A stretch of 64,000 nucleotides of DNA from a virus: IMG/VR virus record IMGVR_UViG_3300025949_000019, positions 33,539 to 97,538 of that record. One strand, given 5' to 3'. Numbering within the stretch: the stretch's first letter is position 1; each line of letters begins with the position of its first letter. The notes below the pieces were generated by a model, which was not told where the DNA came from, searched no databases, and saw nothing but the letters and a program-made list of their open reading frames with translations. Shown here piece by piece: positions 32,423 through 45,186 of the stretch. The translations under genes and the position numbers were made by a program.

Positions 32423-32656
32423 ATGAAAACATACAAACAGTTGATTTCGGAGTTGAGCCTAACAACACTGACAAGATATCGCCATGCAGCAAGAAAATCA
32501 ATCCCTGCTCTTAGGGATGCATCTAAAAAAACTAGCTATATTGATGCAAATATCTTGGATAAGGCTTTTAATAGAGAAGATGGCGTAAGGCTCGCAACCA
32601 AGAAAATCAACCGTAAGATGGCTGTACAGAAATTAGCAAAACCATTAGAAAAATAA
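32423..32656 (+). CDS. Putative internal head protein (capsid-targeting leader)
   Basis: MKTYKQLISE resembles the T4 IP leader MKTYQEFIAE; basic protein. Confidence 0.7.
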   Translation: MKTYKQLISELSLTTLTRYRHAARKSIPALRDASKKTSYIDANILDKAFNREDGVRLATKKINRKMAVQKLAKPLEK

Positions 32657-33312: not shown

Positions 33313-35310
33313 ATGTCAGAATTCTTAAGGTTGTTAGGTTTTAATTTTGGTCCTAACACGTCTATCACAAAGGAAGTTCCAAAAGAGGAACGTTCTCCAA
33401 TCACCCCAGTCAATGAAGATGGGGCAGTCACCATTCAGTCTACGCCATACTATGGCACCTACATCGACCTAGAAGGTTCGGTCAGAAACGAAGTAGAGTT
33501 AATCACGAAATATCGCTCAATGTCAATTCAACCCGAGTTGGAAAGAGCAATCGATGAAGTCGTAAACGAAGCAATTCAAAAGGACGAAGAAGGTGATATC
33601 GTTGAACTTGACCTAGATGACTTGAAGGTCTCTGAGGGAACAAAGGAACGAGTCATTGAAGAATTCGAAGAAGTCCTGAAATTATTGAACTTCAACACAA
33701 CACCAGATGAAATCTTCAGAAGATGGTACATAGATGGTAGAATTTACTATCACATCATCGTAAACGAAATTGATCCATCAACCGGCATACGAGAACTACG
33801 CTATGTCGATCCTCGTAGAATCAGAAAAATCCGTGAGATTCAGAAGAAAAAGGACCCATTGACTGGTGCAGATGTTATTGTCAAGATCAATGAGTATTTT
33901 CTATATTCTGAGAAAGTCACGCTCTCACAGACAGTCTCTACAAACCTAGGTCTAAAGATCGCGCCAGATTCAATCATCTATGTCAATTCGTCTTTGATGG
34001 ATGAGAAGGGTTTGATGGTTCTTTCCTATCTACACAAAGCAATCAAACCCCTAAACAATCTAAGAATGGTAGAAGATGCATTGGTCATCTACCGACTTTC
34101 TAGGGCTCCAGAACGTAGAGTGTTTTACATTGACGTTGGTAATATGCCGAAGCAAAAAGCAGACCAATATCTGTATGACATTATGATGAAGTACAGAAAC
34201 AAATTGGTTTATGATGCCTCGACAGGTGAGGTTCGTGACGATAGAAAACACTTGAATATGATGGAGGACTTCTGGATTCCACGTCGCGGAGAAGGAAAGT
34301 CAACAGAAATCTCTACACTTCAATCTGGACAAAACCTGTCTAGAATCGAAGATGCTGAATTCTTCAAGAAGAAGCTATACGAATCGCTTGGAATCCCGGT
34401 TGGTCGTCTAAACCTTGATGGAAATGCTCCCTCAATCGTCGGTGTTGGTCGTTCTACTGAGGTCACAAGGGAAGAACTTAAGTTTGCCAAATTCATTGAT
34501 CGTCTTCGTAACAAATTTTCAAATGTCTTCTTGAATGCACTTGGCACCCAACTTCGCCTAAAGAATGTCTGTAATGAAGAAGAATGGAATGTTCTAAAGC
34601 AAGACATTAAATTCAAGTGGTTAAAATCAAACAACTTCGATGAACTCCTAGAAGGCGAACTTCTACGCGAGAGACTGATCACCCTTCAAGCAATCGATCC
34701 ATATGTTGGTCGTTATTTCTCGACAGAGTGGGTCAAAAAGAACGTCCTTCATATGAATGATGAAGAAATCTTGGAGATGGATGCACAGATCGAATCTGAG
34801 AATGAAGTCGGAACGCCTGCAATGGAAGGATCACCACTTCAAGTCCAACAGCAACAGCTTGACCAACAAGACCAGATGCAAACAATGGCACTTCAACAAC
34901 ACGATGCAGCCCTAGATCAACAAGATGCAGTCACGGGCGCAATCAAGGATGGCGGTGCTCAGATTGCAATTCAAGGCGCAATGATGCCTCCGGGACAAGG
35001 TGGTGGAGCAATCAACACATTCGGTAAGGCTGGCAAGAAACCGGGGCAACCTGGTCAAGGCAGCCCATTCGGAGGAACACCATCGGGTGCAGTTCCGGGT
35101 GATGGAGTCGGTGGCGGCGCTGGTTCTGGCGTAACGATGGGCGCAGGAACAGGTGGAGACATGAACATGGCTGGTGGCCAACAACAAAACGGACCAGTCG
35201 CACAACCCAAGATCGGAAATGCTCCCGGATCAGGGAAGAAGATTGCATCGAAGATGAAGAAGAAGGGTGCAGCAAACAGCAAAAAGAGGTTGAGTGGCGG
35301 TCTTCAATAG
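33313..35310 (+). CDS. gp20: Portal protein gp20 with long low-complexity C-terminal extension
   Basis: FRRWYIDGR, YLHKAIKPLNNLRMVEDALVIYRLSRAPERRVFYIDVGNMPK, EDFWIPRRG. Confidence 0.97.
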   Translation: MSEFLRLLGFNFGPNTSITKEVPKEERSPITPVNEDGAVTIQSTPYYGTYIDLEGSVRNEVELITKYRSMSIQPELERAIDEVVNEAIQKDEEGDIVELDLDDLKVSEGTKERVIEEFEEVLKLLNFNTTPDEIFRRWYIDGRIYYHIIVNEIDPSTGIRELRYVDPRRIRKIREIQKKKDPLTGADVIVKINEYFLYSEKVTLSQTVSTNLGLKIAPDSIIYVNSSLMDEKGLMVLSYLHKAIKPLNNLRMVEDALVIYRLSRAPERRVFYIDVGNMPKQKADQYLYDIMMKYRNKLVYDASTGEVRDDRKHLNMMEDFWIPRRGEGKSTEISTLQSGQNLSRIEDAEFFKKKLYESLGIPVGRLNLDGNAPSIVGVGRSTEVTREELKFAKFIDRLRNKFSNVFLNALGTQLRLKNVCNEEEWNVLKQDIKFKWLKSNNFDELLEGELLRERLITLQAIDPYVGRYFSTEWVKKNVLHMNDEEILEMDAQIESENEVGTPAMEGSPLQVQQQQLDQQDQMQTMALQQHDAALDQQDAVTGAIKDGGAQIAIQGAMMPPGQGGGAINTFGKAGKKPGQPGQGSPFGGTPSGAVPGDGVGGGAGSGVTMGAGTGGDMNMAGGQQQNGPVAQPKIGNAPGSGKKIASKMKKKGAANSKKRLSGGLQ

Positions 35311-35318
35311 CCTAAATA
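35311..35318 (+). promoter_or_regulatory. T4-type late promoter variant (CCTAAATA)
   Basis: 4 nt before ATG 35323. Confidence 0.55.
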
Positions 35319-35322
35319 ATAT

Positions 35323-35793
35323 ATGGTAAAGAAGACAAAAACAACATACTATCACAAGAAACTCGGACCTGTTTCTAAGCTAGAACGTCGCTTGGAAAAA
35401 ACAAAAGCAGCCGATGTTCTTGGTAAGTTTGGTGACCACACAAAGGACAGAGTAAAGACGGTTGCGACTGTCTCTACTGGAGCCGCTGCAATCGGAACAC
35501 TAGGAGCAGCCGCAGCATTGGCGGCTCATTTTGCCGGCGGACCGTCTAATGCAGTTGCACCGACATTTCATGATTCTTATTTCTTTCATCCAGACCCAAT
35601 TCCACTAACGAGTGAGGAAGTTGATATGAACACGAAGAACAAAATAGAAGAACTTGTTGATCTTGTTTCCGTTGGTGTGGCTGAAAATTTACTGGACGAA
35701 GTTGCAAACCAAGTCCTCGGAGATAAGATAAGTGACCTATTGTATCAAAGAAGATTGCAGATAGCAGAGACATTATTTAAGGATAAAGACTAA
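35323..35793 (+). CDS. Prohead core gp67-like domain fused to N-terminal basic/Gly-Ala zipper segment
   Basis: C-terminal LGDKISDLL..RR..IA..LF; sits in the gp67 position after the portal. Confidence 0.6.
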   Translation: MVKKTKTTYYHKKLGPVSKLERRLEKTKAADVLGKFGDHTKDRVKTVATVSTGAAAIGTLGAAAALAAHFAGGPSNAVAPTFHDSYFFHPDPIPLTSEEVDMNTKNKIEELVDLVSVGVAENLLDEVANQVLGDKISDLLYQRRLQIAETLFKDKD

Positions 35794-35794
35794 C

Positions 35795-36406
35795 ATGGCT
35801 AAACATCATAAAAAAACCCACAAGCACTCTCACTATCATATCGGTCTTCCACCAAGGGAAGACAAGAGATACAAGAAAAACTTCATCTCAAAGCACCTGA
35901 AAGGTGTGACACAAGAAGAAACAGAGAACCTACAGGAATTGGGTTTGGCTGATGTTGCTAATCCAGTAGGTGCAATTGGTCGTGCTGGTGCAACAGTCGC
36001 AGGTAGATTGCAAGCTCGTCAGAGAAATGACAGAAGTAGAGCAGAAAAAAGTTCTGAGAGAACATCATCGGCTGTTAAGACAGGTTTGGCTGGTGCAGCA
36101 TTAGGGTCTGCTGCTGGATTGCCTGGTGCTGCAATTGGTGGAGCCGCTGGTGCAGTAGGTGGTTATTTGGGAGCAAGATCAGATCAAGCGAAGGATAAAA
36201 TGAAAGCAAAAGAACCATTACTAAGCACAGAAGAAATCGAATTAGTTGGCGCTGCAATTGACAGAATCTCAGCAGACGCAAATCAAGATGAAGCAAGGGA
36301 ATTCATTGCACAGGCTCTTGGCAACAAGATTCTTACAAACCTAGAATACAGAAAAGCAGAACTAGCACAGGCTATTTTCGGAACACATCAAGGAAATGAC
36401 GAATAA
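35795..36406 (+). CDS. Second gp67-like protein with His/Lys-rich N-terminus and glycine zipper
   Basis: C-terminal ALGNKILTNLEYRKAELAQAIF resembles that of the preceding gene; GLAGAALGSAAGLPGAAIGGAAGAVGG zipper. Confidence 0.6.
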   Translation: MAKHHKKTHKHSHYHIGLPPREDKRYKKNFISKHLKGVTQEETENLQELGLADVANPVGAIGRAGATVAGRLQARQRNDRSRAEKSSERTSSAVKTGLAGAALGSAAGLPGAAIGGAAGAVGGYLGARSDQAKDKMKAKEPLLSTEEIELVGAAIDRISADANQDEAREFIAQALGNKILTNLEYRKAELAQAIFGTHQGNDE

Positions 36407-38897
36407 CACTAGCAGCAATACAGAGATGTTTGTCGTAGAAGGTTTGGCTGACTCAATCAGGAGTTCGGCTGCGAAACTTTCTGGGCGTGCGTTTGTCAGA
36501 AATGCTTCACGCCATATGGGACAAGCAGTTGGCTCTGTTAGCAGCTATGTTGTTCATGGAACCGAGACGGCTGGTGAGGGAACTGCACACTATGTTATTC
36601 ATAAGAGTATACATGGTGAACATGAACACAAAAAGAACAAAAAACACAAAGTTGTTCATGAGGCTACTGGTTCGCAAATCAGAACAGCCGTCGTTGCTGG
36701 TGCATTGACTGGTGGTGTCGCAGCACACTATCTAAGAAAACACTATGACAAGAAGAAACATGTAAGAAGAAAGCACGTCAGAGAAAGTATTGGTGAATTA
36801 ATAGCTGGTGCGGCTGATGATATCGGAGTTGTTGCATACAAACATTTAACCAGAAAAGATAAGCCTAATAACAATATTGTTGCAGCTAATACTGTAAAGC
36901 CAAAGATGATGGTCAAAAAAGTAATCAAGAAACTCCCAGAGGGGTTTGCATCTTCGGCTGCAAGAATAGGTAAAAAAGCAATCGGAAACAAATGGGTTCG
37001 TGGCGGCGGAGCATTTCTAGCGGCTGCTGGCATTTCATCTGCGGTTTCTGACGTTGCTCAATCGGCAACTGAGAAATACTTAAAGAATAAAGATAAAGTT
37101 GCAGCTAGAAAATCACCCAAATCTTCGGAGGAAGTTCCTCAAGCATCTCAGGGAATGCAATATGAAGGTGTGATCGGTGCGGCGGCTGGTATCGCATCGA
37201 AGGCTGGGAAGTTTATTGCACAGCGCAAGAATCAAATCAAATCAACTGGCAAATTTGTTGCTGGCCAGAGCATTGGTGGTGCCGCAATTGGTGCGACAAT
37301 TCCGATTGTAGATCGTTATCTTGCAAAGAAAGAAAAAGAAACTGCTGCAAAGCAAGCTGGTCAACCAGTCTCAGAAGCACTTCATAAGGAACCACCAGTT
37401 GTTCTGATCTTGAAAAGAAAATCAATCAGACTGTTTCCACAGGGAGACAAAGTTGCTCTCTATAAGAACGACAAGACCGGCATTTCATTTGCGGTTCCAT
37501 ACGATGATCCAGAAGATGCAGTGAAATCAAACAACGAAATTATTGGCGCTGTCTCTGAAGGTGTCTTCAGGGATGTTGGTTCTGCTGCATGGAGAGAATT
37601 TAGAAGAACAATGGCAGCTAGAAAGAAAAGCGGACCGTTCACATATGATGCAAAGGAAGCGGAAGAAGCTGCAAAGCGCCATGCAGAGGCAGAAAAAGCA
37701 TACGAGAAATTGCATAAATCAATTCCAGGTCTTGACAAATTACCAAAAGGATCAGGACGTGCGGCTGCATGGGGTGTTTCTGCTGCTGTTGGCACGGGAT
37801 ATGTTGTTGACAAAGGAACAAGACACATAGAAAAGATCATTGACAACCCAGATAGGTCTAGGAGAGTTAATGGTCGCCCTGTCTATACTAACGAAGCTGC
37901 AAAATCACCGGGTGCACACCTTGGCAGACCATCCGTAAGCGGAGCCTTAAAGAATGGTGCTGCAATTGGTGGTGGATTAATTCTTGCAAAAGCAGCATAT
38001 GATACCGGAAAAAAGTATCTGGAAACAAAATCTAGTCGTGAAAAACAAGATAATTTCGAAAAACTTCAGAGACAAAATATGAAATACGTCAAGAAGATAA
38101 GGATGAGGAAGGAAGAAGTAGAACAACTAGATGAATTTTTACCAGCATTGATGGCGGCTGCAAGAGCCGCACCTGCTGTCATAAGAGCCGCCGCAGCAAG
38201 TCCACTAGGACGTTATGCTGGAAAAGCAATTGGTGTTGGTTCTACTGTTGGTGGTCTAGTCGGTCTTGGTAGTGCTACGATCAAGAAAAAGAAGAAACAA
38301 ACTTCAGTTGATCCAGATGATAGAAGCGATTCTTCACCAGATGCAGAACCAAATCCATCTGTGTCGGAGGCAACATCACACCACCAGATGACGCCCATCA
38401 AAGCAAAGGTCAATAAGTTTATTTCTAAGGATGTTAGAAAACATATTGCGATTGCCGCTGCTGGTGCACTTGGAGCAAAGCTTGTTGATATAGGGTATGA
38501 TGCATACAGGGATCATGCAGACATAAAGAAAGCTGAAAAAGAAGAAAAAGCAAAAGCAAGAGCCCAAAAGGAAGTCGCACCGAAAAAGATCATCATTCAG
38601 AAAAAGACGAACCCAAAGACAGGCACGACCACAGTCAAGAAAGAAATCAAAGAAGCAAAAGAAGAAGTGCGTGGTTATGGTGCTATCGTAGAATCAACAA
38701 GAAGTGGCTCTGACGGATATGTTCATCACAATGACGGAACTAGAAGCAAAGTAGATGTATATACTGCTCACATGATTCAGAATATCCATGAATCACTTAG
38801 CATCGAGAACCAACAGAAGCTAAGAGAAATGGTTGCAAGGGATAGAAGTAACTTCAACAAGATCGTTGATTTCGCACACAAACAACACAACAAATAG
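36396..38897 (+). CDS. Modular putative internal head polyprotein (about 12 segments bounded by hydrophobic-X-Glu sites)
   Basis: 833 aa; repeating site / amphipathic / Gly-Ala zipper / basic architecture; lies between portal and prohead protease. Confidence 0.65.
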   Translation: MTNNTSSNTEMFVVEGLADSIRSSAAKLSGRAFVRNASRHMGQAVGSVSSYVVHGTETAGEGTAHYVIHKSIHGEHEHKKNKKHKVVHEATGSQIRTAVVAGALTGGVAAHYLRKHYDKKKHVRRKHVRESIGELIAGAADDIGVVAYKHLTRKDKPNNNIVAANTVKPKMMVKKVIKKLPEGFASSAARIGKKAIGNKWVRGGGAFLAAAGISSAVSDVAQSATEKYLKNKDKVAARKSPKSSEEVPQASQGMQYEGVIGAAAGIASKAGKFIAQRKNQIKSTGKFVAGQSIGGAAIGATIPIVDRYLAKKEKETAAKQAGQPVSEALHKEPPVVLILKRKSIRLFPQGDKVALYKNDKTGISFAVPYDDPEDAVKSNNEIIGAVSEGVFRDVGSAAWREFRRTMAARKKSGPFTYDAKEAEEAAKRHAEAEKAYEKLHKSIPGLDKLPKGSGRAAAWGVSAAVGTGYVVDKGTRHIEKIIDNPDRSRRVNGRPVYTNEAAKSPGAHLGRPSVSGALKNGAAIGGGLILAKAAYDTGKKYLETKSSREKQDNFEKLQRQNMKYVKKIRMRKEEVEQLDEFLPALMAAARAAPAVIRAAAASPLGRYAGKAIGVGSTVGGLVGLGSATIKKKKKQTSVDPDDRSDSSPDAEPNPSVSEATSHHQMTPIKAKVNKFISKDVRKHIAIAAAGALGAKLVDIGYDAYRDHADIKKAEKEEKAKARAQKEVAPKKIIIQKKTNPKTGTTTVKKEIKEAKEEVRGYGAIVESTRSGSDGYVHHNDGTRSKVDVYTAHMIQNIHESLSIENQQKLREMVARDRSNFNKIVDFAHKQHNK

Positions 38898-38910
38898 GAA
38901 GATATAGAAA

Positions 38911-39450
38911 ATGGCTTCATTTACAAAACAAGTCCTGAAGGACACAACAACCGAAACAGTCGTTAAATTCATCGGCTTCATTGATGCGGCTGCTAACTTG
39001 CCACAAACACTAGACCAAGCGAACAGCACACTTGCAATGGCATCGCTTCGCGGTGCTTATGACACAAACAATGCACTTCGCTCCGTGACTGGTAATGCTG
39101 CTCTATCTTTCTATGGAACAAACATTAGAAAAGTTAACTGGACAATTGCCGCAACACCAGCAAACGCTGCAATTCAACTTTCTTGGAGAGGTGGTGGATC
39201 GAATGCAAACGTTGTTGCATTCAACTTCTGCGGTGGTGCAGGAGAACTAGACTTCACCGACGGAACGACAGCCGCGGTTGCAATCACAGACCCGGGAGTT
39301 GGTTTGGGCGCAAACTCTGGCGATTTGATCGTTACTGCAACACCTGGTTTAACAGCAGCAACATATACAATCATTGTCGCATTGAAGAAAGACCCGAAAT
39401 ACTTTGACCGTGGTGCATTGGTCGACAAGGCTTACTTCCAGAACCCATAA
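38911..39450 (+). CDS. Hypothetical head-region structural protein
   Basis: 179-aa Ala/Thr-rich ORF with late-gene codon style. Confidence 0.65.
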   Translation: MASFTKQVLKDTTTETVVKFIGFIDAAANLPQTLDQANSTLAMASLRGAYDTNNALRSVTGNAALSFYGTNIRKVNWTIAATPANAAIQLSWRGGGSNANVVAFNFCGGAGELDFTDGTTAAVAITDPGVGLGANSGDLIVTATPGLTAATYTIIVALKKDPKYFDRGALVDKAYFQNP

Positions 39451-39454
39451 TAAC

Positions 39455-39898
39455 ATGAAGGGTCTTGATCTTGTCCATTACATTGCAAAGGGAGATTTAG
39501 AGGAAGCCTATGATGTTTTCCTTAGAAATCTTTCAGAGATTGTTTTGGTCAAGGTAAACGAAAGAAAACAGGACATTGCAGGGGAATTACTGGTAATTGG
39601 CGAAGTTCATAAATATCCAAAAGTTGTTAGAAGAATCGGGCGTTTGAATTTTGTCAGGATCAGGGTCAGACACGGAAAGATTCAACGAAATAGACGAGTC
39701 TCTGCGGTAAAGGGTTATACATTTAGGCATGGTCATCTGATTAGAATGAGACCGTCCGAGAGACTTCACAGAAGGCTTGCAGCAAGACGAGCAAAGATTA
39801 AGAGGCGTGCAAAGAGGTCCCAAACAAGAAGACACTTGATCATTGCAATGAGAAGAAGAAAATCACTAGGATTGTCATACAGGCCATTTGGAAGATGA
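39455..39898 (+). CDS. Prohead core protein, gp68-like (Arg-rich)
   Basis: RIRVRHGKIQR....GY....G.L.RM..SER..R..AARRAK..R; ATG 39455 preferred over 39404; lies upstream of gp21. Confidence 0.7.
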   Translation: MKGLDLVHYIAKGDLEEAYDVFLRNLSEIVLVKVNERKQDIAGELLVIGEVHKYPKVVRRIGRLNFVRIRVRHGKIQRNRRVSAVKGYTFRHGHLIRMRPSERLHRRLAARRAKIKRRAKRSQTRRHLIIAMRRRKSLGLSYRPFGR

Positions 39899-40236
39899 TG
39901 ATGATGAAAACATTCTTAGAATTCTTAGAAGAAAGCAGCAAGGTCATCGATATTGCAAATGTGCTGGTTCATAGATTGATAAAGCATCACCACAACATGC
40001 TAAGTCCAAAGGGATATGTTCATTCTGTAGTTCAAAAGGGTATCAGAACAACATATGCATGGAGAAAAGGTGACCACCACTTTGAGATTATGCATAAGAG
40101 TACAGACCCAAACTGGTATCAGTGGGGTCATGCGAAAGTAGGGAAAAACGGAAAACTAGATTTTTACAACTCAGGACAAGAACCACTTCGCGGTGATCCA
40201 GCAACGGGCGCACCAGACTTTAGGAGAATTAAATGA
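39895..40236 (+). CDS. Putative internal head protein (capsid-targeting leader)
   Basis: MKTFLEFLEE leader; His-rich and basic. Confidence 0.68.
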   Translation: MMMMKTFLEFLEESSKVIDIANVLVHRLIKHHHNMLSPKGYVHSVVQKGIRTTYAWRKGDHHFEIMHKSTDPNWYQWGHAKVGKNGKLDFYNSGQEPLRGDPATGAPDFRRIK

Positions 40237-40820
40237 AGACATTTAAACAATTCATAACAGAAAGAATGATGGGTCATGGTAGGAGCGGCGAACACTCAAA
40301 ACACTATGCTCATCCAATGCATCTTCATCTAAAGAAGGGCGCATTTCATCGCTGGCTTGGGAAGTCGGAAGGTGAGCCTATCACAGCCGCAGACATTCAA
40401 AAAGGTCTAGCTGCTGGTGGACATGCTGCTAAGATGGCAAACTTTGCAAGGAACGCAAAACATTTCCATCATGAGGAATACAGTCTACAAAACGAAAACG
40501 TTGCGAGAGACCATCCATATACAACTGCTGCCGCAGTCGGTGCTCCGATTGGAGCCGTTGGTGGTGCACTACATGGAGCAGGTTCTGGTTATAGTGTAGC
40601 AACCCAATTAGGTTTTAAGCGATCAGCAGCAAAAAGTATAATAAAAGCAGGACTTAAGGCTGGTGGTGTAGTTGGTGCTGCAACTGGAGCGGGTGCTGCT
40701 GCACTGGCAACATATGGATATAAAATCAGAAATAAACACCCAACTGTCGGAGGATACCTATCTGGTGGTGTTAAGGGTGCAATAGGAAGTAAAATCGACT
40801 CATATAAGGCGAAAAAATGA
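40233..40820 (+). CDS. Putative internal head protein with His-rich module and glycine-zipper module
   Basis: MKTFKQFITE leader; internal SLQNE site followed by GxxxG repeats. Confidence 0.72.
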   Translation: MKTFKQFITERMMGHGRSGEHSKHYAHPMHLHLKKGAFHRWLGKSEGEPITAADIQKGLAAGGHAAKMANFARNAKHFHHEEYSLQNENVARDHPYTTAAAVGAPIGAVGGALHGAGSGYSVATQLGFKRSAAKSIIKAGLKAGGVVGAATGAGAAALATYGYKIRNKHPTVGGYLSGGVKGAIGSKIDSYKAKK

Positions 40821-41485
40821 AATTACTCAAAGAGATAGTCGAAGACATTCAAGTTACAATACTAGAAGAAAAAGAAGGTGGCAAGAAAGCCTACTTCATT
40901 GAAGGTATCTGGCTTCAATCTGAATTGAAGAACAGAAACGGAAGAATGTATCCAATGCCAGTCTTGGAACGTGAAGTAAAGAGATATTCTGAGCAATACA
41001 TCGACAAGAAAAGAGCATTCGGTGAGCTAGGGCACCCAGATAGTCCCACTATTAACCTGGATCGTGTAAGCCACTCTATTGTTGAGCTACATAGAGATGG
41101 GAACAACTTTATGGGCAAAGCTAAGATTCTAGAGACCCCAAACGGCAAGATCGTAAAGACATTTCTAGACGAAGGCTTAACAATCGGTGTCTCCTCAAGA
41201 GGTCTTGGATCATTGAAGACAACCTCGGAAGGTGTGAACATCGTTCAGGATGACTTCTACCTTGCAACCGCTGGAGATATCGTTGCAGACCCGTCAGCAC
41301 CCGATGCATTTGTTCAAGGGATCATGGAAGACAAGGAATGGTTGTTTATTGATGGACAAGGATGGATTCCGCAGTTTTTGGATGAAACCAAGAGAGATAT
41401 TAAGAAAATGACTGCAAAGGAAATCAATGAAAAGAAGATGGCGATTTTCGAAGCATTCATGAAGAACTTAGGTGGACAGAAATAA
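40817..41485 (+). CDS. gp21: Prohead core protease gp21
   Basis: IEGIWLQSE.KNRNGR.Y, AFGELGHP, GVSSRGLGS, DIVADPSAPDAFV. Confidence 0.96.
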   Translation: MKLLKEIVEDIQVTILEEKEGGKKAYFIEGIWLQSELKNRNGRMYPMPVLEREVKRYSEQYIDKKRAFGELGHPDSPTINLDRVSHSIVELHRDGNNFMGKAKILETPNGKIVKTFLDEGLTIGVSSRGLGSLKTTSEGVNIVQDDFYLATAGDIVADPSAPDAFVQGIMEDKEWLFIDGQGWIPQFLDETKRDIKKMTAKEINEKKMAIFEAFMKNLGGQK

Positions 41486-41552: not shown

Positions 41553-42965
41553 ATGGCTAAAAAGACATTAACCGAAGCAGCAGCAGAAATTTTGAATCAA
41601 AGCCGCTCGTCTGCACCCGGTCAACCACAGCAAAAACTGGAATCTGATCCAGGTTTTGATTCTGCTGTTCAAGGCGGAAAGAGCGAAGAAGACCTTGGTG
41701 GAGACACACCTAAAGTCGTCGCAGCAAACAATCCAGACCCAACTCGTCCAATCGGCAAAGCAAAAGAGCCAGGCGCAACTCCTCCAATTGGTAAGGAAAA
41801 TGACGCAAGGACAAAGAGCCTAAAAGGCAACAACTCTACTGAAGATGACCTTCAATCCAGAGGACCAAATAAAGTGAAATATCAAACATCCGGTGATGGT
41901 AACCCCGCTGCACGTGGTGGTACTGAAGATGCAGAACTAGAACACCAAGAAGACGAATTCTGTGAAGAACAAGTCCTCTATGTTGATGAAGAAGGTAATG
42001 TCCTAGATGAAGAAGGCAATATCCTTTCAGACGAAGAACTAGCAAATTACGAACTAGTCGAAGAAATCGAAGAAGACGACGACACCAACAACGATGAAAA
42101 TGAAGTCATCGAAGAAGGCGAAGAAGAAAGCGTTCTTCTATTCGACAGAGAAGCAATCTATGAATCGTTTAGACAAGACCTCGAAGCTGACCTTGGTAAT
42201 CTTCTTGATGATGATACAACTCTCTCAGAAGAATTCAAAGGGAAAGCAAAGACAATCTTTGAAGCAGCAGTCATGGCTCGCGTAGACCAAATGGCTGATG
42301 CACTAGAAGCCGCATTCGTAGAAACACTAGAAGAAGCCATTGATGAAATCAAGGGTGACCTGACAGAAAAGACAAACGACTACCTATCCTATGTTGCAGA
42401 ACAATGGATGCAAGAGAATGAACTTGCAGTCGAAAAAGCACTGAAGTCAGAACTAACAGAAGATTTCATTAACGGACTAAAAGAACTATTTGTTGAGCAC
42501 TATATCAATATCCCTGAAGATAAGGTTGATGTTGTTGAAGAACTCGCAGAAGAAGTCGCACAAGTCGAAGAAAGACTGAACGAAGAAATTCAGAAAAACA
42601 TCGACCTGAGCAAGGAAGTAAAGTCTTATCAAGCCGCAGAAGCTTTTGCCACAGTGTGCGAAGGTCTAACAGACGTGCAAGTTGATAAGATGCAAACTCT
42701 AGCAGAAGGACTTGAATTCGGCACTGTTGCAGAATTCACAGAAAAACTTGAAATGTTGCGCGACAACTATTTCTCGACTGCTGGAGATGGCAGCAAATCA
42801 GCACCTAAGACAAAGGAAGTAGGACAAACCAGTGATGGTGGATTGAACGAAACCATCGAGATTGAAGAAACCGGCACTAAGAAGTTCATTACTGCTGATG
42901 GATCGGTCTCTGCATTTACAAAAGCACTAGATAAAGCTTCTGCAAATCAACTGCCAAAATCCTAA
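41553..42965 (+). CDS. gp22: Prohead core scaffold gp22
   Basis: Acidic protein; LSEEFK.KAKTIFEAAV, YL.YVAEQWM.EN.LAVE, F.EHYI.IPE.KVDVV. Confidence 0.93.
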   Translation: MAKKTLTEAAAEILNQSRSSAPGQPQQKLESDPGFDSAVQGGKSEEDLGGDTPKVVAANNPDPTRPIGKAKEPGATPPIGKENDARTKSLKGNNSTEDDLQSRGPNKVKYQTSGDGNPAARGGTEDAELEHQEDEFCEEQVLYVDEEGNVLDEEGNILSDEELANYELVEEIEEDDDTNNDENEVIEEGEEESVLLFDREAIYESFRQDLEADLGNLLDDDTTLSEEFKGKAKTIFEAAVMARVDQMADALEAAFVETLEEAIDEIKGDLTEKTNDYLSYVAEQWMQENELAVEKALKSELTEDFINGLKELFVEHYINIPEDKVDVVEELAEEVAQVEERLNEEIQKNIDLSKEVKSYQAAEAFATVCEGLTDVQVDKMQTLAEGLEFGTVAEFTEKLEMLRDNYFSTAGDGSKSAPKTKEVGQTSDGGLNETIEIEETGTKKFITADGSVSAFTKALDKASANQLPKS

Positions 42966-43014: not shown

Positions 43015-44337
43015 ATGGATAATGTAATTCCTATCAACACTCTCGTAGAAAAATGGAAGCCCGTCCTAGACCACGAAGGCTACAATCCTATTAAGGATGA
43101 CGCCCGCAGGAAGGCTACCGCTGTTGTTCTTGAGAACACATCGAAAGCCCTACAAACAGAAGGCGCAGTTCATAACCTTCTAACAGAAAACGCACCTACA
43201 AACCACATTGGTGGTTCTGGTGTCGCAACATTTGACCCTGTTCTTATTTCCTTGATTCGCCGTGCAATGCCTAAGTTGATTGCATATGACGTTGTTGGCG
43301 TTCAACCAATGACAGGACCAACTGGACTGATCTTTGCAATGAGAAGCCGTTATGCTTCACAAGTTGGAACAGAAGCTTTGTTCAACGAAGCAAACACAGC
43401 ATGGACAGGACTTGGTAACCAAGTTAACACAGACCCAACATTTGCACTTTCAACAAACACATCGTATACAGTAGGTACACCAATGTCTACAGCAACCGCT
43501 GAAGGACTTGGAACTTCTGGAAACGCTGCATTCGCTGAAATGGCATTCAGCATCGAGAAAATCACTGTCACAGCCCAAAGCCGTGCATTGAAAGCAGAAT
43601 ACTCGATGGAACTTGCACAAGACCTTAAAGCAATTCATGGTCTAGATGCAGAAGGAGAATTGAGCAACATTCTTTCAGCAGAACTATTGACTGAAATTAA
43701 CCGTGAAGTCATCCGTAGAATCTACATGTCAGCAACAATCGGTGCTCAGTGGGCAGTTACCACAACGGGAACATTCGACTTGGATACTGACGCAAACGGA
43801 CGTTGGTCAGTTGAAAAATTCAAGGGACTTGTTTTCCAAATTGAAAAAGAAGCAAACGCAATTGCACGTACAACTCGTAGAGGCAAGGGTAACATTATGA
43901 TTGTCTCCGCTGACGTTGCATCTGCACTAGCAATGGCAGGAGTCCTATCATACACACCAGCCCTACAAGCAAGTGTAAACCTAGAAGTAGATGAAACAGG
44001 AAACACATTTGCAGGAACAATGAGCGGTGGACGTGTTAAAGTCTTTATCGATCCATACTTCGGAGGCGCATCAGCCGGAAACGAGCTAGTTGTCGTTGGA
44101 TACAAGGGAGCAAACATCTATGACGCAGGTATCTTCTACTGCCCATACGTTCCTCTACAAATGGTCCGTGCTGTTGATCCTAACAGCTTCCAACCAAAAA
44201 TTGGATTCAAGACACGTTATGGAATGGTAGCAAACCCATTTGCAACATCAAACGCAGATGGAGTCGTAGGAGACCGTGGAGTAGCAGGACAAGCGAATAT
44301 TTACTACAGAATCTTCCGCGTCGTCAACTTGATGTAA
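43015..44337 (+). CDS. gp23: Major capsid protein gp23
   Basis: DPVLISLIRRAMP..GVQPMTGPTGLIFAMR, SRALKAEYSMELAQDLKAIHGLDAE, FQPKIGFKTRYG; likely maturation site LLTE/N. Confidence 0.98.
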   Translation: MDNVIPINTLVEKWKPVLDHEGYNPIKDDARRKATAVVLENTSKALQTEGAVHNLLTENAPTNHIGGSGVATFDPVLISLIRRAMPKLIAYDVVGVQPMTGPTGLIFAMRSRYASQVGTEALFNEANTAWTGLGNQVNTDPTFALSTNTSYTVGTPMSTATAEGLGTSGNAAFAEMAFSIEKITVTAQSRALKAEYSMELAQDLKAIHGLDAEGELSNILSAELLTEINREVIRRIYMSATIGAQWAVTTTGTFDLDTDANGRWSVEKFKGLVFQIEKEANAIARTTRRGKGNIMIVSADVASALAMAGVLSYTPALQASVNLEVDETGNTFAGTMSGGRVKVFIDPYFGGASAGNELVVVGYKGANIYDAGIFYCPYVPLQMVRAVDPNSFQPKIGFKTRYGMVANPFATSNADGVVGDRGVAGQANIYYRIFRVVNLM

Positions 44338-44439: not shown

Positions 44440-45186
44440 ATGAAAACATACCATCAATTCATAACGGAAATCAGGCTATTACCAAAACTATTCAAGAGGC
44501 ACACTCTTGGATTAAGAACACAAACATATGGATTAGGTAGTTACTTCAAACAAATTGTTAAACAACAACACACGCAAGAATTGCTACATGTAGATAAATT
44601 GAAATCGGGGCATAAAATTTACCATCATGTTAAAACTCATCTACCCAGCGAAAAAATCTATCGTGTAGTAAACAAGCATAGCGGTAAAATATCAACAGTC
44701 TTAGTCACAACACCAAATAGTGGTGGTGTTGAGACAATTGATAGAGTTGCAACAACAAGATCAATGAGAAAGAACAAAAATCGTCTAAAGTTGGTTGACC
44801 TCTACCATCATCTAATAACAAAACATAATGTAATCCTAGCTACGGACGACCAATCTGTTGGTGGTATGAAAACATGGCAAGAACTTTCTAGGAAGAAGGG
44901 CATCAATATTCACGGATGGGACAAAGAAACAGGCAAACCAATCAATACACCTAGCATATTGACACCCGATAATGCACATGAAACGCATTACAAGGATATC
45001 GGAATGAATGATTTTGTTACACCCGAAACCAAAAGAACAAGATTAAAGGTGAAACACAAAAATCCAGAATATGTAGACCAAATAAGAGACATTAGACATA
45101 GAGACCATCTAGATGCATATGATGATGTTACAGATAATCGTTTTCATATTGGCAGAATGAGACTTGTAGCTCATAAGAAAGATTAA
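44440..45186 (+). CDS. Putative internal head protein, possibly GNAT-like fold
   Basis: MKTYHQFITE leader; LYHHLI...ILATDDQSVGGMKTWQEL. Confidence 0.65.
   Translation: MKTYHQFITEIRLLPKLFKRHTLGLRTQTYGLGSYFKQIVKQQHTQELLHVDKLKSGHKIYHHVKTHLPSEKIYRVVNKHSGKISTVLVTTPNSGGVETIDRVATTRSMRKNKNRLKLVDLYHHLITKHNVILATDDQSVGGMKTWQELSRKKGINIHGWDKETGKPINTPSILTPDNAHETHYKDIGMNDFVTPETKRTRLKVKHKNPEYVDQIRDIRHRDHLDAYDDVTDNRFHIGRMRLVAHKKD

What the first reader, a model, noticed from the sequence alone, without database searches (positions are those of the whole stretch)
36396..38897. Apparent capsid-packaged polyprotein yielding about 10 cationic glycine-zipper peptides
Seen: the 833-aa ORF parses into segments of roughly 40-110 aa, each ending in a hydrophobic-X-Glu-like site: VVE/GLADS, VHE/ATGSQ, VRE/SIGEL, LPE/GFASS, QYE/GVIGA, VSE/ALHKE, VSE/GVFRD, TNE/AAKSP, LDE/FLPAL (38136), VSE/ATSHH, IKE/A, IVE/S. 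Most segments share one plan: an amphipathic basic helix, a Gly/Ala zipper (e.g. VVAGALTGGVAA, GGGAFLAAAGIS, SIGGAAIGATI, GAAIGGGLILA, IAAAGALGAKL), then Tyr plus a Lys/Arg cluster (HYLRK, KYLKNK, RYLAKK, KYLETK). Only two parts look globular (PPVVLILKRKSIRLFP..; C-terminal HNDG..KVD). Known: T4 gp21 cleaves after (I/L/V)-X-E during head maturation, and gp21 is encoded 2 kb downstream. Inference: head maturation releases a library of diverged peptides resembling antimicrobial peptides or unmodified bacteriocins. They could form the DNA-entry channel, exclude superinfection, disable membrane-bound defences or condense DNA. I know of no description of such an array.
Basis: partly seen in the sequence, partly recalled or inferred. 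Interest (0 to 1): 0.88.

Follow-up and report, generated by a model that had tools for sequence, protein, structure and literature searches.

The report
Protease-jointed basic phage head polyprotein
An uncultured T4-like phage has stretched a normally small head-interior protein into an 833-residue chain of basic, glycine-rich modules. The modules are joined by motifs that match its head protease's cutting site, so the chain is probably cut into about ten peptides inside the capsid, though no cut has been measured.

Summary
The ORF (36396-38897, 833 aa) is real. It lies in a T4-type head module: portal, this gene, a gp67/68-like gene, S77 protease, scaffold, capsid protein.

It is the longest member seen here of an unnamed gene family that always sits just after the portal gene and ranges from 72 to 833 aa. 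Two small folded domains are conserved: A (residues ~330-380) and B (~760-831). The stretch between them is hypervariable.

In this phage the variable parts are nine cationic modules (net +3 to +12) with Gly/Ala tracts.

- **Cut sites:** the count of hydrophobic-x-Glu sites is no higher than chance (13 vs 11). However, 10 of 13 are followed by Gly/Ala/Ser (p = 5e-4), the boundary Glu residues are the best conserved ones in homologues, and the family brackets its domains with this motif. The capsid protein keeps T4's known LTE cut site.
- **Interpretation:** a capsid-loaded polyprotein cut by the protease is well supported by comparison, but untested.
- **Not supported:** the antimicrobial-peptide or bacteriocin reading. 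There is no excess amphipathicity, the tracts are too weakly hydrophobic for classical membrane helices, and there is no Pfam glycine-zipper match.
- **Earlier scan notes:** unchecked notes report similar glycine-zipper head polyproteins in many other phage genomes.

Verdict: a new variant of the T4 internal-protein system.

The parts
36396..38897 (+). 833-aa ORF (P0001), 89.8 kDa, pI 9.95: expanded member of the 'A..B' head-module family
36396..36440 (+). Leader, residues 1-15, ending ..EMFVVE/G. A divergent counterpart of the T4 capsid-targeting sequence ..QEFIAE/A
   Evidence: The resemblance is read by eye, so this is inference.
36441..36662 (+). Module m1 (res 16-89), net +5, His-rich tail, ends VHE/A
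   Evidence: in-register similarity to m4, p = 0.0005
36663..36785 (+). Module m2 (res 90-130), net +8, tract TAVVAGALTGGVAAHYL followed by a Lys/Arg/His cluster, ends VRE/S
36786..36941 (+). Module m3 (res 131-182), net +5, ends LPE/G
   Evidence: site shared by 3 of 5 aligned homologues
36942..37166 (+). Module m4 (res 183-257), net +6, tract GGGAFLAAAGISSAVS. Ends QYE/G, which is not a canonical site.
37167..37376 (+). Module m5 (res 258-327), net +7, two Gly/Ala tracts, ends VSE/A. First module shared with all long homologues.
37377..37559 (+). Domain A (res 328-388): conserved three-stranded beta unit PPVVLILKRKSIRLFP..PYDD, net 0, ends GAVSE/G
   Evidence: site conserved in 6 of 7 homologues
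37560..37895 (+). Module m6 (res 389-500), net +8. Ends ..VYTNE/A, where homologues have VYE.
   Evidence: Glu present in 7 of 7
37896..38135 (+). Module m7 (res 501-580), net +7. Ends in the family-type linker KEEVEQLDE/FLP; Glu580 is invariant.
38136..38369 (+). Module m8 (res 581-658): FLPALMAAARAAP.. plus AIGVGSTVGGLVGLGSATI-KKKKK, net +3, ends VSE/A
   Evidence: the module also occurs in L135
38370..38654 (+). Module m9 (res 659-753), net +12, tract IAIAAAGALGAKLVDIGYD, long Lys-rich helix, ends IKE/A
38655..38894 (+). Domain B (res 754-833): conserved helix, beta-hairpin and three-helix unit; weak match to phrog_4187
40817..41485 (+). Prohead protease, gp21 homologue (Peptidase_S77): the presumed processing enzyme
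33313..35310 (+). Portal protein (gp20 family). The A..B gene follows it in roughly 70 of the ~120 related loci with both flanks visible.
39455..39898 (+). gp67/gp68-like prohead core gene: N-terminal part matches phrog_1064 (the family of T4 gp67); Arg-rich tail ends ..KSLGLS.. like the ..KALGLS end of T4 gp68
43180..43188 (+). Codons for Leu-Thr-Glu58 of the capsid protein. They align with T4 gp23 ..FLTE65/A.
   Evidence: Alignment. That Glu65-Ala66 is the T4 cut site is recalled; one search confirms the L/I-x-E rule and Glu-Ala cleavage.
40233..40820 (+). 195-aa protein with a canonical leader MKTFKQFITE/ followed by about 105 aa of Gly-zipper tracts. Independent evidence that this cargo type is capsid-targeted in this phage.
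35323..36406 (+). Two further small basic proteins with Gly/Ala tracts (156 and 203 aa), between the portal gene and the 833-aa gene

Best explanation
The gene encodes a cargo polyprotein of the prohead core.

HOW IT MOST LIKELY WORKS
1. It is made late with the other head proteins.
2. It joins the scaffolding core, either through its short leader (..EMFVVE) or through the conserved domains A and B.
3. When the shell closes, the gp21-type serine protease cuts it after hydrophobic-x-Glu, before Gly/Ala/Ser or Phe.
4. The products would be a 15-residue leader, domains A and B (each ~7-9 kDa, neutral), and eight to ten basic peptides of 4-21 kDa (pI 9.6-11.1).
5. The acidic scaffold fragments leave the head. 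I infer that the basic peptides stay on the DNA, like the T4 internal proteins, and leave with it at infection.
6. Their Gly-x-x-x-Gly tracts, each followed by Tyr and a Lys/Arg cluster, would let them pack helix to helix. This could happen among themselves in the head or at the host membrane.

SHOWN
- Gene position and family membership.
- Modular anatomy and charge.
- Motif statistics and motif conservation.
- Protease homology.

INFERRED
- Packaging, cleavage, retention, ejection and any activity in the host.
For: CONTEXT
- T4-type head module, with an S77 protease 1.9 kb downstream.
- The capsid protein keeps a Leu-Thr-Glu aligned with T4 gp23's FLTE. T4's protease cuts after L/I-x-E, and core proteins are cut at several sites (PMC9026906).
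- Three neighbouring genes start MKTFKQFITE, MKTYHQFITE and MKTYKQLISE. T4 IPII and IPIII start MKTYQEFIAE. One of these genes carries Gly-zipper tracts.

FAMILY
- An exhaustive HMMER search gave 298 relatives. Domains A and B are conserved, and most N-termini are leader-like.
- Synteny of portal, A..B gene, gp67/68-like gene and protease holds in roughly 70 of the ~120 related loci with both flanks visible. Gene length varies from 72 to 833 aa.
- Family-wide counts: hydrophobic-x-Glu 1052 against 731 +/- 23 expected; E-x-hydrophobic-x-E 252 against 52 +/- 7.
- The motif brackets domain A in 86-95% of members, against 28-47% of random windows.
- One member carries a HicA toxin domain between such sites (Pfam E = 5.9e-10).
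- In relatives, an ADP-ribosyltransferase-like protein (motifs read by eye) with a leader sits next to this gene.

THIS PROTEIN
- P1' is Gly/Ala/Ser at 10 of 13 sites (p = 5.5e-4).
- Glu580 is invariant, and the sites after residues 388, 500 and 658 are kept in 5-7 of 7 homologues.
- Sequences after the sites are similar in register.
- All cargo modules are cationic.
- The AF2 model shows beads on a string, not one fold.
- Gly i,i+4 periodicity has z = 5.5 in pooled tracts.
- Tyr and basic residues mark the C-terminal side of tracts.
Against: - There are no virion proteomics, and no cut has been measured.
- The site count in this protein is at chance level.
- Half the proposed sites have Val at P3, whereas the T4 rule is Leu/Ile. 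Two sites (QYE, TNE) do not fit the motif at all.
- The leader differs from the canonical one used by neighbouring genes.
- Site conservation could instead reflect helix capping or linker composition.
- Only eight long homologues were available. Their contigs could not be fetched, so their context is unknown.
- The AF2 model of the cargo has low confidence from a shallow alignment. 'Disordered' may therefore mean 'not predictable'.
- T4 core fragments mostly leave the head, so retention and ejection of these peptides is an assumption.
Confidence: 0.62

Rival explanations
1. The peptides are membrane-active and injected. After release in the head they leave with the DNA. They then insert into the host cytoplasmic membrane through their glycine-zipper tracts. 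There they would form or line a DNA conduit, depolarise the cell, or block membrane-bound defences or superinfection.
For: - GxxxG periodicity in pooled tracts.
- Tyr plus a Lys/Arg cluster at one end of the tracts, like an interfacial anchor.
- Tracts resemble Gly/Ala-rich, marginally hydrophobic membrane-active segments.
- At least five proteins of this head module carry such tracts.
- Weak, sub-threshold Pfam glycine-zipper hits in two neighbouring genes.
Against: - Tracts are 10-19 residues long, with 19-mer hydropathy of 1.2-1.5, below the usual membrane-helix level.
- No excess amphipathicity.
- No Pfam glycine-zipper match in any of the nine modules.
- Contractile-tail phages are not known to need capsid-borne channel proteins (background knowledge).
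- No experiment bears on this.
Confidence: 0.25
2. The protein is purely an assembly factor: an enlarged prohead-core or scaffold accessory, like T4 gp22, gp67 and gp68. The basic modules pair with the very acidic scaffold, and the glycine zippers bundle the core. After cleavage the fragments leave the head before DNA enters and have no role in the next host.
For: - It sits among core genes: gp67/68-like, protease and scaffold.
- T4 core proteins are cut at several sites and mostly expelled (PMC9026906).
- The scaffold here is long (470 aa) and acidic.
- The gene is conserved in position across relatives.
Against: - The region between A and B is hypervariable in length and content (0 to more than 600 aa). 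It includes a HicA toxin domain and other unrelated inserts, which suits cargo better than a structural core.
- Some relatives have only the 72-90-aa domain A protein, so the cationic modules are dispensable for assembly.
- Basic peptides should bind the incoming DNA rather than leave.
Confidence: 0.2
3. The protein is packaged but not chopped. Only the leader, or nothing, is removed, and the ~88-kDa disordered polycation acts as a DNA-condensing internal protein.
For: - The site count is at chance level in this protein.
- Net charge is about +60 and most of the chain is predicted disordered.
- T4 Alt is cut only near its N-terminus (background knowledge; PMC9026906 Figure 3 legend).
Against: - Small residues at P1' (p = 5.5e-4).
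- The boundary Glu residues are conserved while other Glu residues vary.
- Module starts are similar in register.
- The family-wide linker EEVEQLDE recurs.
Confidence: 0.1
4. The protein is not a virion component. It would be a membrane-associated protein of the infected cell, for example one that helps portal or prohead initiation at the membrane, or one that acts in lysis or exclusion.
For: - Hydrophobic Gly/Ala tracts.
- The gene lies next to the portal gene. T4 prohead assembly starts on the membrane (background knowledge).
Against: - No signal peptide or classical membrane helix.
- Family N-termini look like capsid-targeting leaders.
- Protease-type motifs sit at the domain borders.
- The gene lies within the core-protein cluster.
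Confidence: 0.04

Closest known systems
T4 internal proteins IPI, IPII, IPIII and Alt, with the capsid targeting sequence, processed by prohead protease gp21
   Same: - A T4-type head module with an S77 protease.
- Neighbouring genes carry near-identical leaders (MKTFKQFITE against MKTYQEFIAE).
- The family's N-termini are leader-like.
- The products are basic.
- The presumed cut is after hydrophobic-x-Glu, before a small residue.
   Different: - One 833-aa chain holds about 11 modules, rather than one leader and one protein.
- The leader is divergent.
- The gene has a fixed place between the portal gene and the gp67/68-like gene, whereas T4 ip genes lie elsewhere in the genome (ipII and ipIII at ~65-66 kb, against ~101-106 kb for the portal-to-capsid genes).
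- The Gly-zipper tracts have no T4 counterpart.
- No sequence similarity was seen: the searches returned no IP family, and no direct comparison with the T4 IPs was run.
T4 prohead core proteins gp22, gp67 and gp68
   Same: - Encoded between the portal and capsid genes.
- Cut by gp21 at several L/I-x-E sites (PMC9026906).
   Different: - Those proteins are acidic or small, and their fragments mostly leave the head.
- The true gp67/68 homologue here is a separate gene (39455-39898).
- P0001 matches none of their profiles.
Inner-body and ejection proteins of giant phages phiKZ, 201phi2-1 and SPN3US
   Same: - Many head-interior proteins are cut after Glu at short motifs, often at several redundant sites.
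- Large amounts of protein are packaged with the DNA (PMC9026906, PMC5694885, PMC7411985).
   Different: - Different phage lineage, and a different motif (reported as S/A/G-x-E; recalled, not checked).
- Those are separate paralogous proteins rather than one chain of diverged small modules.
- No homology was tested.
Polyvalent proteins of phages and conjugative elements (Iyer, Burroughs, Anand, de Souza and Aravind 2017; recalled, not read here)
   Same: The idea of one long, modular, fast-evolving protein that is delivered with the DNA and cut into effector units. The family member with a HicA domain fits this idea.
   Different: - Those carry recognisable enzymatic domains and often their own peptidases.
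- They are linked to portal/MuF-type or conjugation genes.
- Here most modules are small non-enzymatic peptides, and the cutter is the head-maturation protease.
Glycine-zipper membrane proteins (Pfam Gly-zipper_YMGG, Gly-zipper_Omp, Gly-zipper_OmpA, Rick_17kDa_Anti, DUF883_C)
   Same: GxxxG-periodic Gly/Ala tracts of similar length, flanked by aromatic and basic residues.
   Different: - None of the nine modules hits these profiles even at E up to 1.
- No lipoprotein or signal sequences.
- The setting is a phage head.
Ejection proteins of short-tailed phages (T7 gp14/15/16, P22 gp7/16/20)
   Same: Capsid-stored proteins that leave with the DNA and enter the host envelope (PMC8954989, abstract seen).
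   Different: - Those are large proteins that refold into a conduit and are not made by multi-site cleavage.
- They serve phages without a contractile tail.
- No similarity was found.

Membership tests
'A..B' head-module family (unnamed; domain B overlaps phrog_4187) | Conserved domain A (PPxxLxLKRKxIRxFPxG..PY) | tested here: met
   Residues 330-380 match roughly 90 of the 150 listed relatives at E down to 1e-17. Invariant P333, P334, R341, R345, P348 and Y356.
'A..B' head-module family (unnamed; domain B overlaps phrog_4187) | Conserved C-terminal domain B (..H.DG...VD..TA.AI..H..L...N..K......F.K..DFA.K) | tested here: met
   Residues 760-831 match many relatives. phrog_4187 E = 6e-4. AF2 pLDDT 96-97.
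'A..B' head-module family (unnamed; domain B overlaps phrog_4187) | Gene lies after the portal gene and before the gp67/68-like and protease genes | tested here: met
   Window order and the same order in related loci.
T4 internal-protein / capsid-targeting-sequence system | N-terminal ~10-residue leader of the MKTYQEFIAE type, ending in L/I-x-E | tested here: inconclusive
   P0001 starts MTNNTSSNTEMFVVE/G; only ..EMFVVE resembles ..QEFIAE. Three neighbouring genes and most family members carry the canonical type.
T4 internal-protein / capsid-targeting-sequence system | gp21-type (Peptidase_S77) prohead protease in the same genome | tested here: met
   PF03420 E = 1.5e-38 and phrog_207 E = 1.5e-77, at 40817-41485.
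T4 internal-protein / capsid-targeting-sequence system | Protein present in virions and cut at the motif | not testable with these tools
   Needs virion mass spectrometry or a co-expression assay.
T4 prohead core proteins gp67 / gp68 / gp22 | Sequence homology to phrog_1064, phrog_3503 or PF25623 | tested here: not met
   P0001 hits none of them. Those profiles hit 39455-39898 and 41553-42965 instead.
Pfam glycine-zipper families | Profile match at or near the gathering score | tested here: not met
   Nine modules scanned at E up to 1 gave no glycine-zipper family. Only the neighbouring genes give weak hits: E 0.0025 for Gly-zipper_YMGG in the 203-aa gene, and E 0.03-0.06 for DUF883_C and Gly-zipper_OmpA in the 195-aa gene.
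Pfam glycine-zipper families | Gly at i, i+4 periodicity in hydrophobic tracts | tested here: inconclusive
   z = 1.1 in P0001 alone. z = 5.5 in 54 pooled tracts from homologues and neighbouring genes, which are not independent sequences.
Cationic antimicrobial peptides / unmodified (class II) bacteriocins | Amphipathic helix with a high hydrophobic moment | tested here: not met
   Maximum moment exceeds shuffles in only 2 of 9 modules.
Cationic antimicrobial peptides / unmodified (class II) bacteriocins | Secretion leader with linked immunity and export genes | tested here: not met
   Every named neighbour on the + strand is a head gene and none matches an export or immunity family; five small neighbours (156, 203, 179, 113 and 195 aa) remain unidentified.
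Classical membrane-spanning proteins | Hydrophobic stretch of ~19 or more residues with Kyte-Doolittle mean of 1.6 or more | tested here: not met
   The best 19-mers score 1.2-1.48.

The most novel reading that the evidence does not exclude
T4-like phages of this uncultured lineage, and by the scan's own unchecked notes many other phages, may use the head-maturation protease as a 'peptide factory'. A fixed carrier gene next to the portal gene would be loaded with fast-evolving modules. The modules would be cut free inside the capsid and injected with the DNA. The cationic glycine-zipper peptides would assemble in the host's inner membrane, either to open the way for the DNA or to disarm the cell. 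This would be a capsid-delivered class of membrane-active phage peptides that no paper I found describes.
Probability: 0.2. Interest if true: 0.85.

Novelty: new variant of a known kind. Interest (0 to 1): 0.6.

Why it matters
T4's internal proteins are the textbook case of proteins that a phage injects with its DNA, but each has one leader and one protein.

This family suggests a second layout. A carrier gene at a fixed place in the head operon has a middle that can be swapped or multiplied, and the head protease's own cutting motif joins the pieces.

If the cuts are real, three things follow:
- It would explain how uncultured T4-like phages diversify their injected cargo. One relative carries a HicA toxin domain in the same slot.
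- It would give a simple sequence rule for finding such cargo in metagenomes.
- It would raise a question that can be tested: what do large amounts of basic glycine-zipper peptides do inside a capsid or a newly infected cell?

If the cuts are not real, the protein is still an unusual disordered polycation in a head operon.

Tried and rejected
SEARCHES THAT FOUND NOTHING USEFUL
- tblastn against 50,697 phage records with P0001, with the minimal member P0011, and with domain B at E up to 5: no match. The family is not visible in cultured phages at BLAST level.
- The nearest isolate by DNA is Pelagibacter phage HTVC008M. It has no domain A gene between its portal and protease genes.
- The word-index protein search found only the query itself.
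- Pfam and PHROGs on the whole protein and on each module: no named family.
- Fold searches with the A+B model: no PDB match by Foldseek (best E = 0.03, TM 0.24) or by VIA-align (best Z = 4.1). BFVD gave only uncharacterised phage proteins, including two from Synechococcus phages.
- ESM Atlas: nothing at or above 0.9.

- Scans of viral and metagenome contigs returned mostly short family members. A few 380-614-aa members did appear (L133, L135-L138, L140-L144), but the contigs of the P0002-P0007/P0025 homologues were not among them, so the genomic context of those closest relatives stays unseen.

OTHER CHECKS
- DNA repeats in 35300-40900: only short Gly/Ala-codon similarities and no recent duplication.
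PHROGs gave no support.

READINGS CONSIDERED AND REJECTED
- Tape-measure or tail protein: wrong operon.
- Collagen-like or fibre protein, such as the 869-aa ORF at the same position in L027: unrelated sequence.

Full report
WHAT IS THERE

The ORF at 36396-38897 is open for 833 codons. The product is 89.8 kDa with pI 9.95. It is rich in Ala (13.6%), Lys (12.1%) and Gly (8.6%).

Its neighbours form a T4-type head module:
- Portal at 33313-35310 (PF07230, E = 6e-164).
- Prohead protease at 40817-41485 (Peptidase_S77, E = 1.5e-38; phrog_207, E = 1.5e-77).
- Scaffold at 41553-42965.
- Major capsid protein at 43015-44337.
- A gene at 39455-39898 whose N-terminal part matches the profile of T4 gp67 (phrog_1064, E = 8.6e-4). 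Its Arg-rich tail ends ..KSLGLS.., like the ..KALGLS end of T4 gp68.

THE T4 CUTTING AND TARGETING SYSTEM IS IN USE HERE

The capsid protein aligns with T4 gp23 at 37% identity. Its ..NLLTE58 lies exactly on T4's ..SFLTE65/A. That this is the T4 cut site is recalled. PMC9026906 confirms that gp21 substrates are cut after L/I-x-E at a Glu-Ala bond.

Three small genes in the window begin MKTFKQFITE (40233), MKTYHQFITE (44440) and MKTYKQLISE (32423). T4 IPII and IPIII, translated from the T4 record, begin MKTYQEFIAE. The first ten residues of IPIII are the capsid targeting sequence (PMC9026906; PMC3012670).

The 40233 gene continues with about 105 residues of Gly-zipper tracts. Cargo of the same type as in the 833-aa protein is therefore attached to a canonical leader in this same phage.

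RELATIVES

The protein is absent from cultured phages at BLAST level, and the word-index search found only the query.

An exhaustive HMMER search of 1.84 billion representative proteins gave 298 hits at E <= 0.001. These reveal the architecture:
- Two short regions are conserved: domain A (residues ~330-380, PPVVLILKRKSIRLFPQGDKVALY..PYDD) and domain B (residues ~760-831).
- Most hits are 110-400-aa proteins with a leader-like N-terminus such as MKSLSEF.., MKTLKEY.., MKSYQEFLE.. or MKTYKDFL... This is followed by A, an acidic linker full of E-x-hydrophobic-x-E, and then B.
- Eight hits (seven of 528-775 aa, P0002-7 and P0025, plus the N-terminally truncated 464-aa P0042) share modules m5-m9 with the window protein. 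The seven aligned in A1 are 27-37% identical to it.

In about 120 related loci fetched through the protease or through domain A, the gene with A sits after the portal gene and before the gp67/68-like gene and the protease. It is often separated from them by a conserved ~175-aa gene, the window's 38911-39450. The gene's length ranges from 72 to 614 aa in those loci.

The 833-aa gene is therefore the positional orthologue of a normally small head-operon gene. It is the longest version seen here.

DOMAINS A AND B

An AF2 model of the minimal 133-aa member, built from 40 sequences, is confident (pLDDT 89.7). Domain A is a three-stranded sheet. Domain B is a helix, a hairpin and three helices.

It matches nothing solved: Foldseek best E = 0.03 and VIA-align best Z = 4.1. 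In BFVD it matches only uncharacterised phage proteins, two of them from Synechococcus phages.

In the full-length model (pLDDT 55, pTM 0.28), only A and B are confident, along with parts of two long helices. The rest is low confidence. The alignment is shallow, so this is weak evidence.

THE CUT SITES

Taken alone, the count is not impressive: 13 [LIVMF]-x-E against 11 expected. Four other lines of evidence carry the case.

1. Ten of the 13 sites are followed by Gly, Ala or Ser, against 6 of 38 other Glu residues (binomial p = 5.5e-4, Fisher p = 1.2e-4). T4 cuts before Ala in gp23, IPII and IPIII.

2. The boundary Glu residues are the conserved ones in the eight-sequence alignment. LDE580/FLP is kept in 7 of 7, and Glu580 is the only invariant Glu. 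VSE388/G is kept in 6 of 7. The Glu near residue 500 is kept in 7 of 7, as VYE in five of them. VSE658/A is kept in 5 of 7. Glu327 is kept in 6 of 7.

3. Across the 150 listed relatives, hydrophobic-x-Glu occurs 1052 times against 731 +/- 23 in shuffles. E-x-hydrophobic-x-E occurs 252 times against 52 +/- 7. At P3, Leu is enriched 1.84-fold, Ile 1.52-fold and Val 1.33-fold. A site lies within 15 residues before domain A in 86% of members (28% of random windows). One lies within 32 residues after A in 95% (47% random), and one lies just before B in 95%. The window's KEEVEQLDE/F is the family's commonest linker type (EQLDE, EQIDE, EQLNE).

4. The 20-mers that follow the proposed cuts resemble each other in register. 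The mean score is -7.8 against -13.9 +/- 2.1 for random starts (p = 0.0025). GLADSIRSSAAKLSGRAFVR (m1) against GFASSAARIGKKAIGNKWVR (m4) scores 25 (p = 0.0005). The parse therefore coincides with the repeat unit.

THE MODULES

Cutting at the sites gives these products:
- A 15-residue leader.
- Nine cargo modules of 41-112 residues, fewer if QYE257 and TNE500 are not cut. All are net cationic (+3 to +12, pI 9.6-11.1).
- The neutral domains A and B.

Pairwise Smith-Waterman scores among cargo modules exceed composition-matched shuffles modestly. The mean z is 1.33 and a quarter of pairs exceed 2. Pairs involving A or B give 0.0. There is no DNA-level duplication. The modules are therefore old, or similar by design rather than by recent copying.

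Tyr sits at the C-terminal end of 56% of tracts, against 22% expected and 22% at the N-terminal end. In homologues the figures are 38% against 20% and 8%. Lys and Arg are enriched after the tracts. Gly at i,i+4 is not significant in this protein alone (z = 1.1). It is significant in 54 pooled tracts from homologues and the three neighbouring genes (49 observed, 26 expected, z = 5.5), though these sequences are related.

Three points count against an antimicrobial-peptide or bacteriocin likeness:
- Hydrophobic moments exceed shuffles in only 2 of 9 modules.
- The best 19-mers reach Kyte-Doolittle 1.2-1.5, below the 1.6 usually taken for a membrane helix.
- No module matches a Pfam glycine-zipper family, even at E up to 1.

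THE SLOT CARRIES CARGO IN OTHER PHAGES

The stretch between A and B varies from almost nothing to more than 600 residues and holds unrelated sequence in different relatives.
- In P0094 it includes a complete HicA toxin domain (PF07927, E = 5.9e-10, above Pfam's threshold). It is bounded by ..LNE/MPE/ and ..VHE/EVE...
- Several independent loci (L133, L135, L136, L137, L142-144) carry basic Gly/Ala-tract inserts. L135 has a clear counterpart of module m8 (..QQVDE/IAPLVGAAVVGAARAAP..).
- In those loci the gene between the portal gene and the A gene starts with a leader (MKKFGDFLSE/) and shows an Arg / Ser-Thr-Ser / Glu-x-Glu pattern like ADP-ribosyltransferases (motifs read by eye). This recalls T4 Alt.

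The portal-to-protease interval therefore looks like a cargo locus. This argues for the polyprotein-carrier reading over a purely structural core role. Some relatives manage with a 72-90-aa domain A protein alone, which points the same way.

MECHANISM AND ITS LIMITS

Best-supported account (confidence 0.62): the protein enters the prohead core and is cut by the S77 protease at the conserved hydrophobic-x-Glu / small-residue joints. It yields eight to ten basic peptides plus A and B.

By analogy with the basic T4 internal proteins, and because the scaffold is acidic, I infer that the peptides stay with the DNA and leave with it. What the Gly-zipper tracts do is open. I rate the options as follows:
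- A membrane role after ejection: about 0.25.
- A pure assembly role with expulsion of the fragments: about 0.2.
- An essentially uncut polycation: about 0.1.
- A non-virion membrane protein: about 0.04.

None of packaging, cleavage, retention or ejection has been measured.

COMPARISON AND NOVELTY

The system works like the T4 leader/gp21 internal-protein system and like the multi-site processing of T4 core proteins and of the giant-phage inner-body proteins (PMC9026906, PMC5694885, PMC7411985).

It is not a member of the gp67, gp68 or gp22 families (tested, not met), nor of the Pfam glycine-zipper families (tested, not met). It is a member of an unnamed A..B family whose only library trace is phrog_4187, of unknown function.

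Full-text searches found no paper that links glycine zippers to phage virion or ejection proteins, and none that describes this family.

The scan's own earlier notes are AI-made and unchecked. They report similar protease-jointed glycine-zipper head polyproteins in at least 61 other genomes, with other cutting motifs. I did not test them. They suggest the theme is widespread rather than unique to this window.

I class this as a new variant of a known kind, with interest 0.6.

Their gene context is therefore unverified.

Noticed in passing
window 32423-32656, 40233-40820, 44440-45186 (also 39895-40236): Genes starting MKTYKQLISE, MKTFKQFITE and MKTYHQFITE (and MMMMKTFLEFLE). These are near-copies of the T4 IPII/IPIII capsid-targeting sequence MKTYQEFIAE, so they are probably packaged internal proteins of unknown function.
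   Followed up: partly
window 39455-39898: This looks like a fusion of a gp67-like N-terminal part (phrog_1064, E = 8.6e-4) with a gp68-like, extremely Arg-rich tail ending ..KSLGLS... T4 has these as two genes. Relatives have 130-350-aa versions with variable middles.
   Followed up: partly
window 34800-35310: The portal protein is 665 aa, against 524 aa for T4 gp20 (1575-nt gene) and 546-575 aa in relatives. It carries a C-terminal tail of about 150 residues rich in Gln, then Gly/Pro, then Lys.
   Followed up: no
window 38911-39450: A 179-aa protein without protease-type motifs, conserved in 62 related loci and often duplicated in tandem there. It sits between the A..B gene and the gp67/68-like gene. 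No family name; possibly a beta-rich head protein.
   Followed up: no
P0094 (family member from another sample), residues 321-372: A complete HicA mRNA-interferase toxin domain (PF07927, E = 5.9e-10) lies between domains A and B, bounded by hydrophobic-x-Glu sites. This would be a candidate capsid-delivered toxin.
   Followed up: partly
L135:8514-9497, L136:4437-5303, L137:1390-2247, L059:5242-6111: In relatives, the gene between the portal gene and the A..B gene has a T4-type leader (MKKFGDFLSE) and an Arg / Ser-Thr-Ser / Glu-x-Glu pattern like ADP-ribosyltransferases (Alt-like). This was read by eye and not profile-tested.
   Followed up: no
L027:5691-8300: An 869-aa ORF with a long collagen-like Gly-x-y region and repeated ..AQAAFNYANTIPLLDQTARN.. 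units sits between the portal gene and the A gene in one relative. It is unrelated to the finding.
   Followed up: no
window 35323-36406: Two small basic proteins (156 and 203 aa) with Gly/Ala tracts and acidic helical C-terminal parts.
   Followed up: partly
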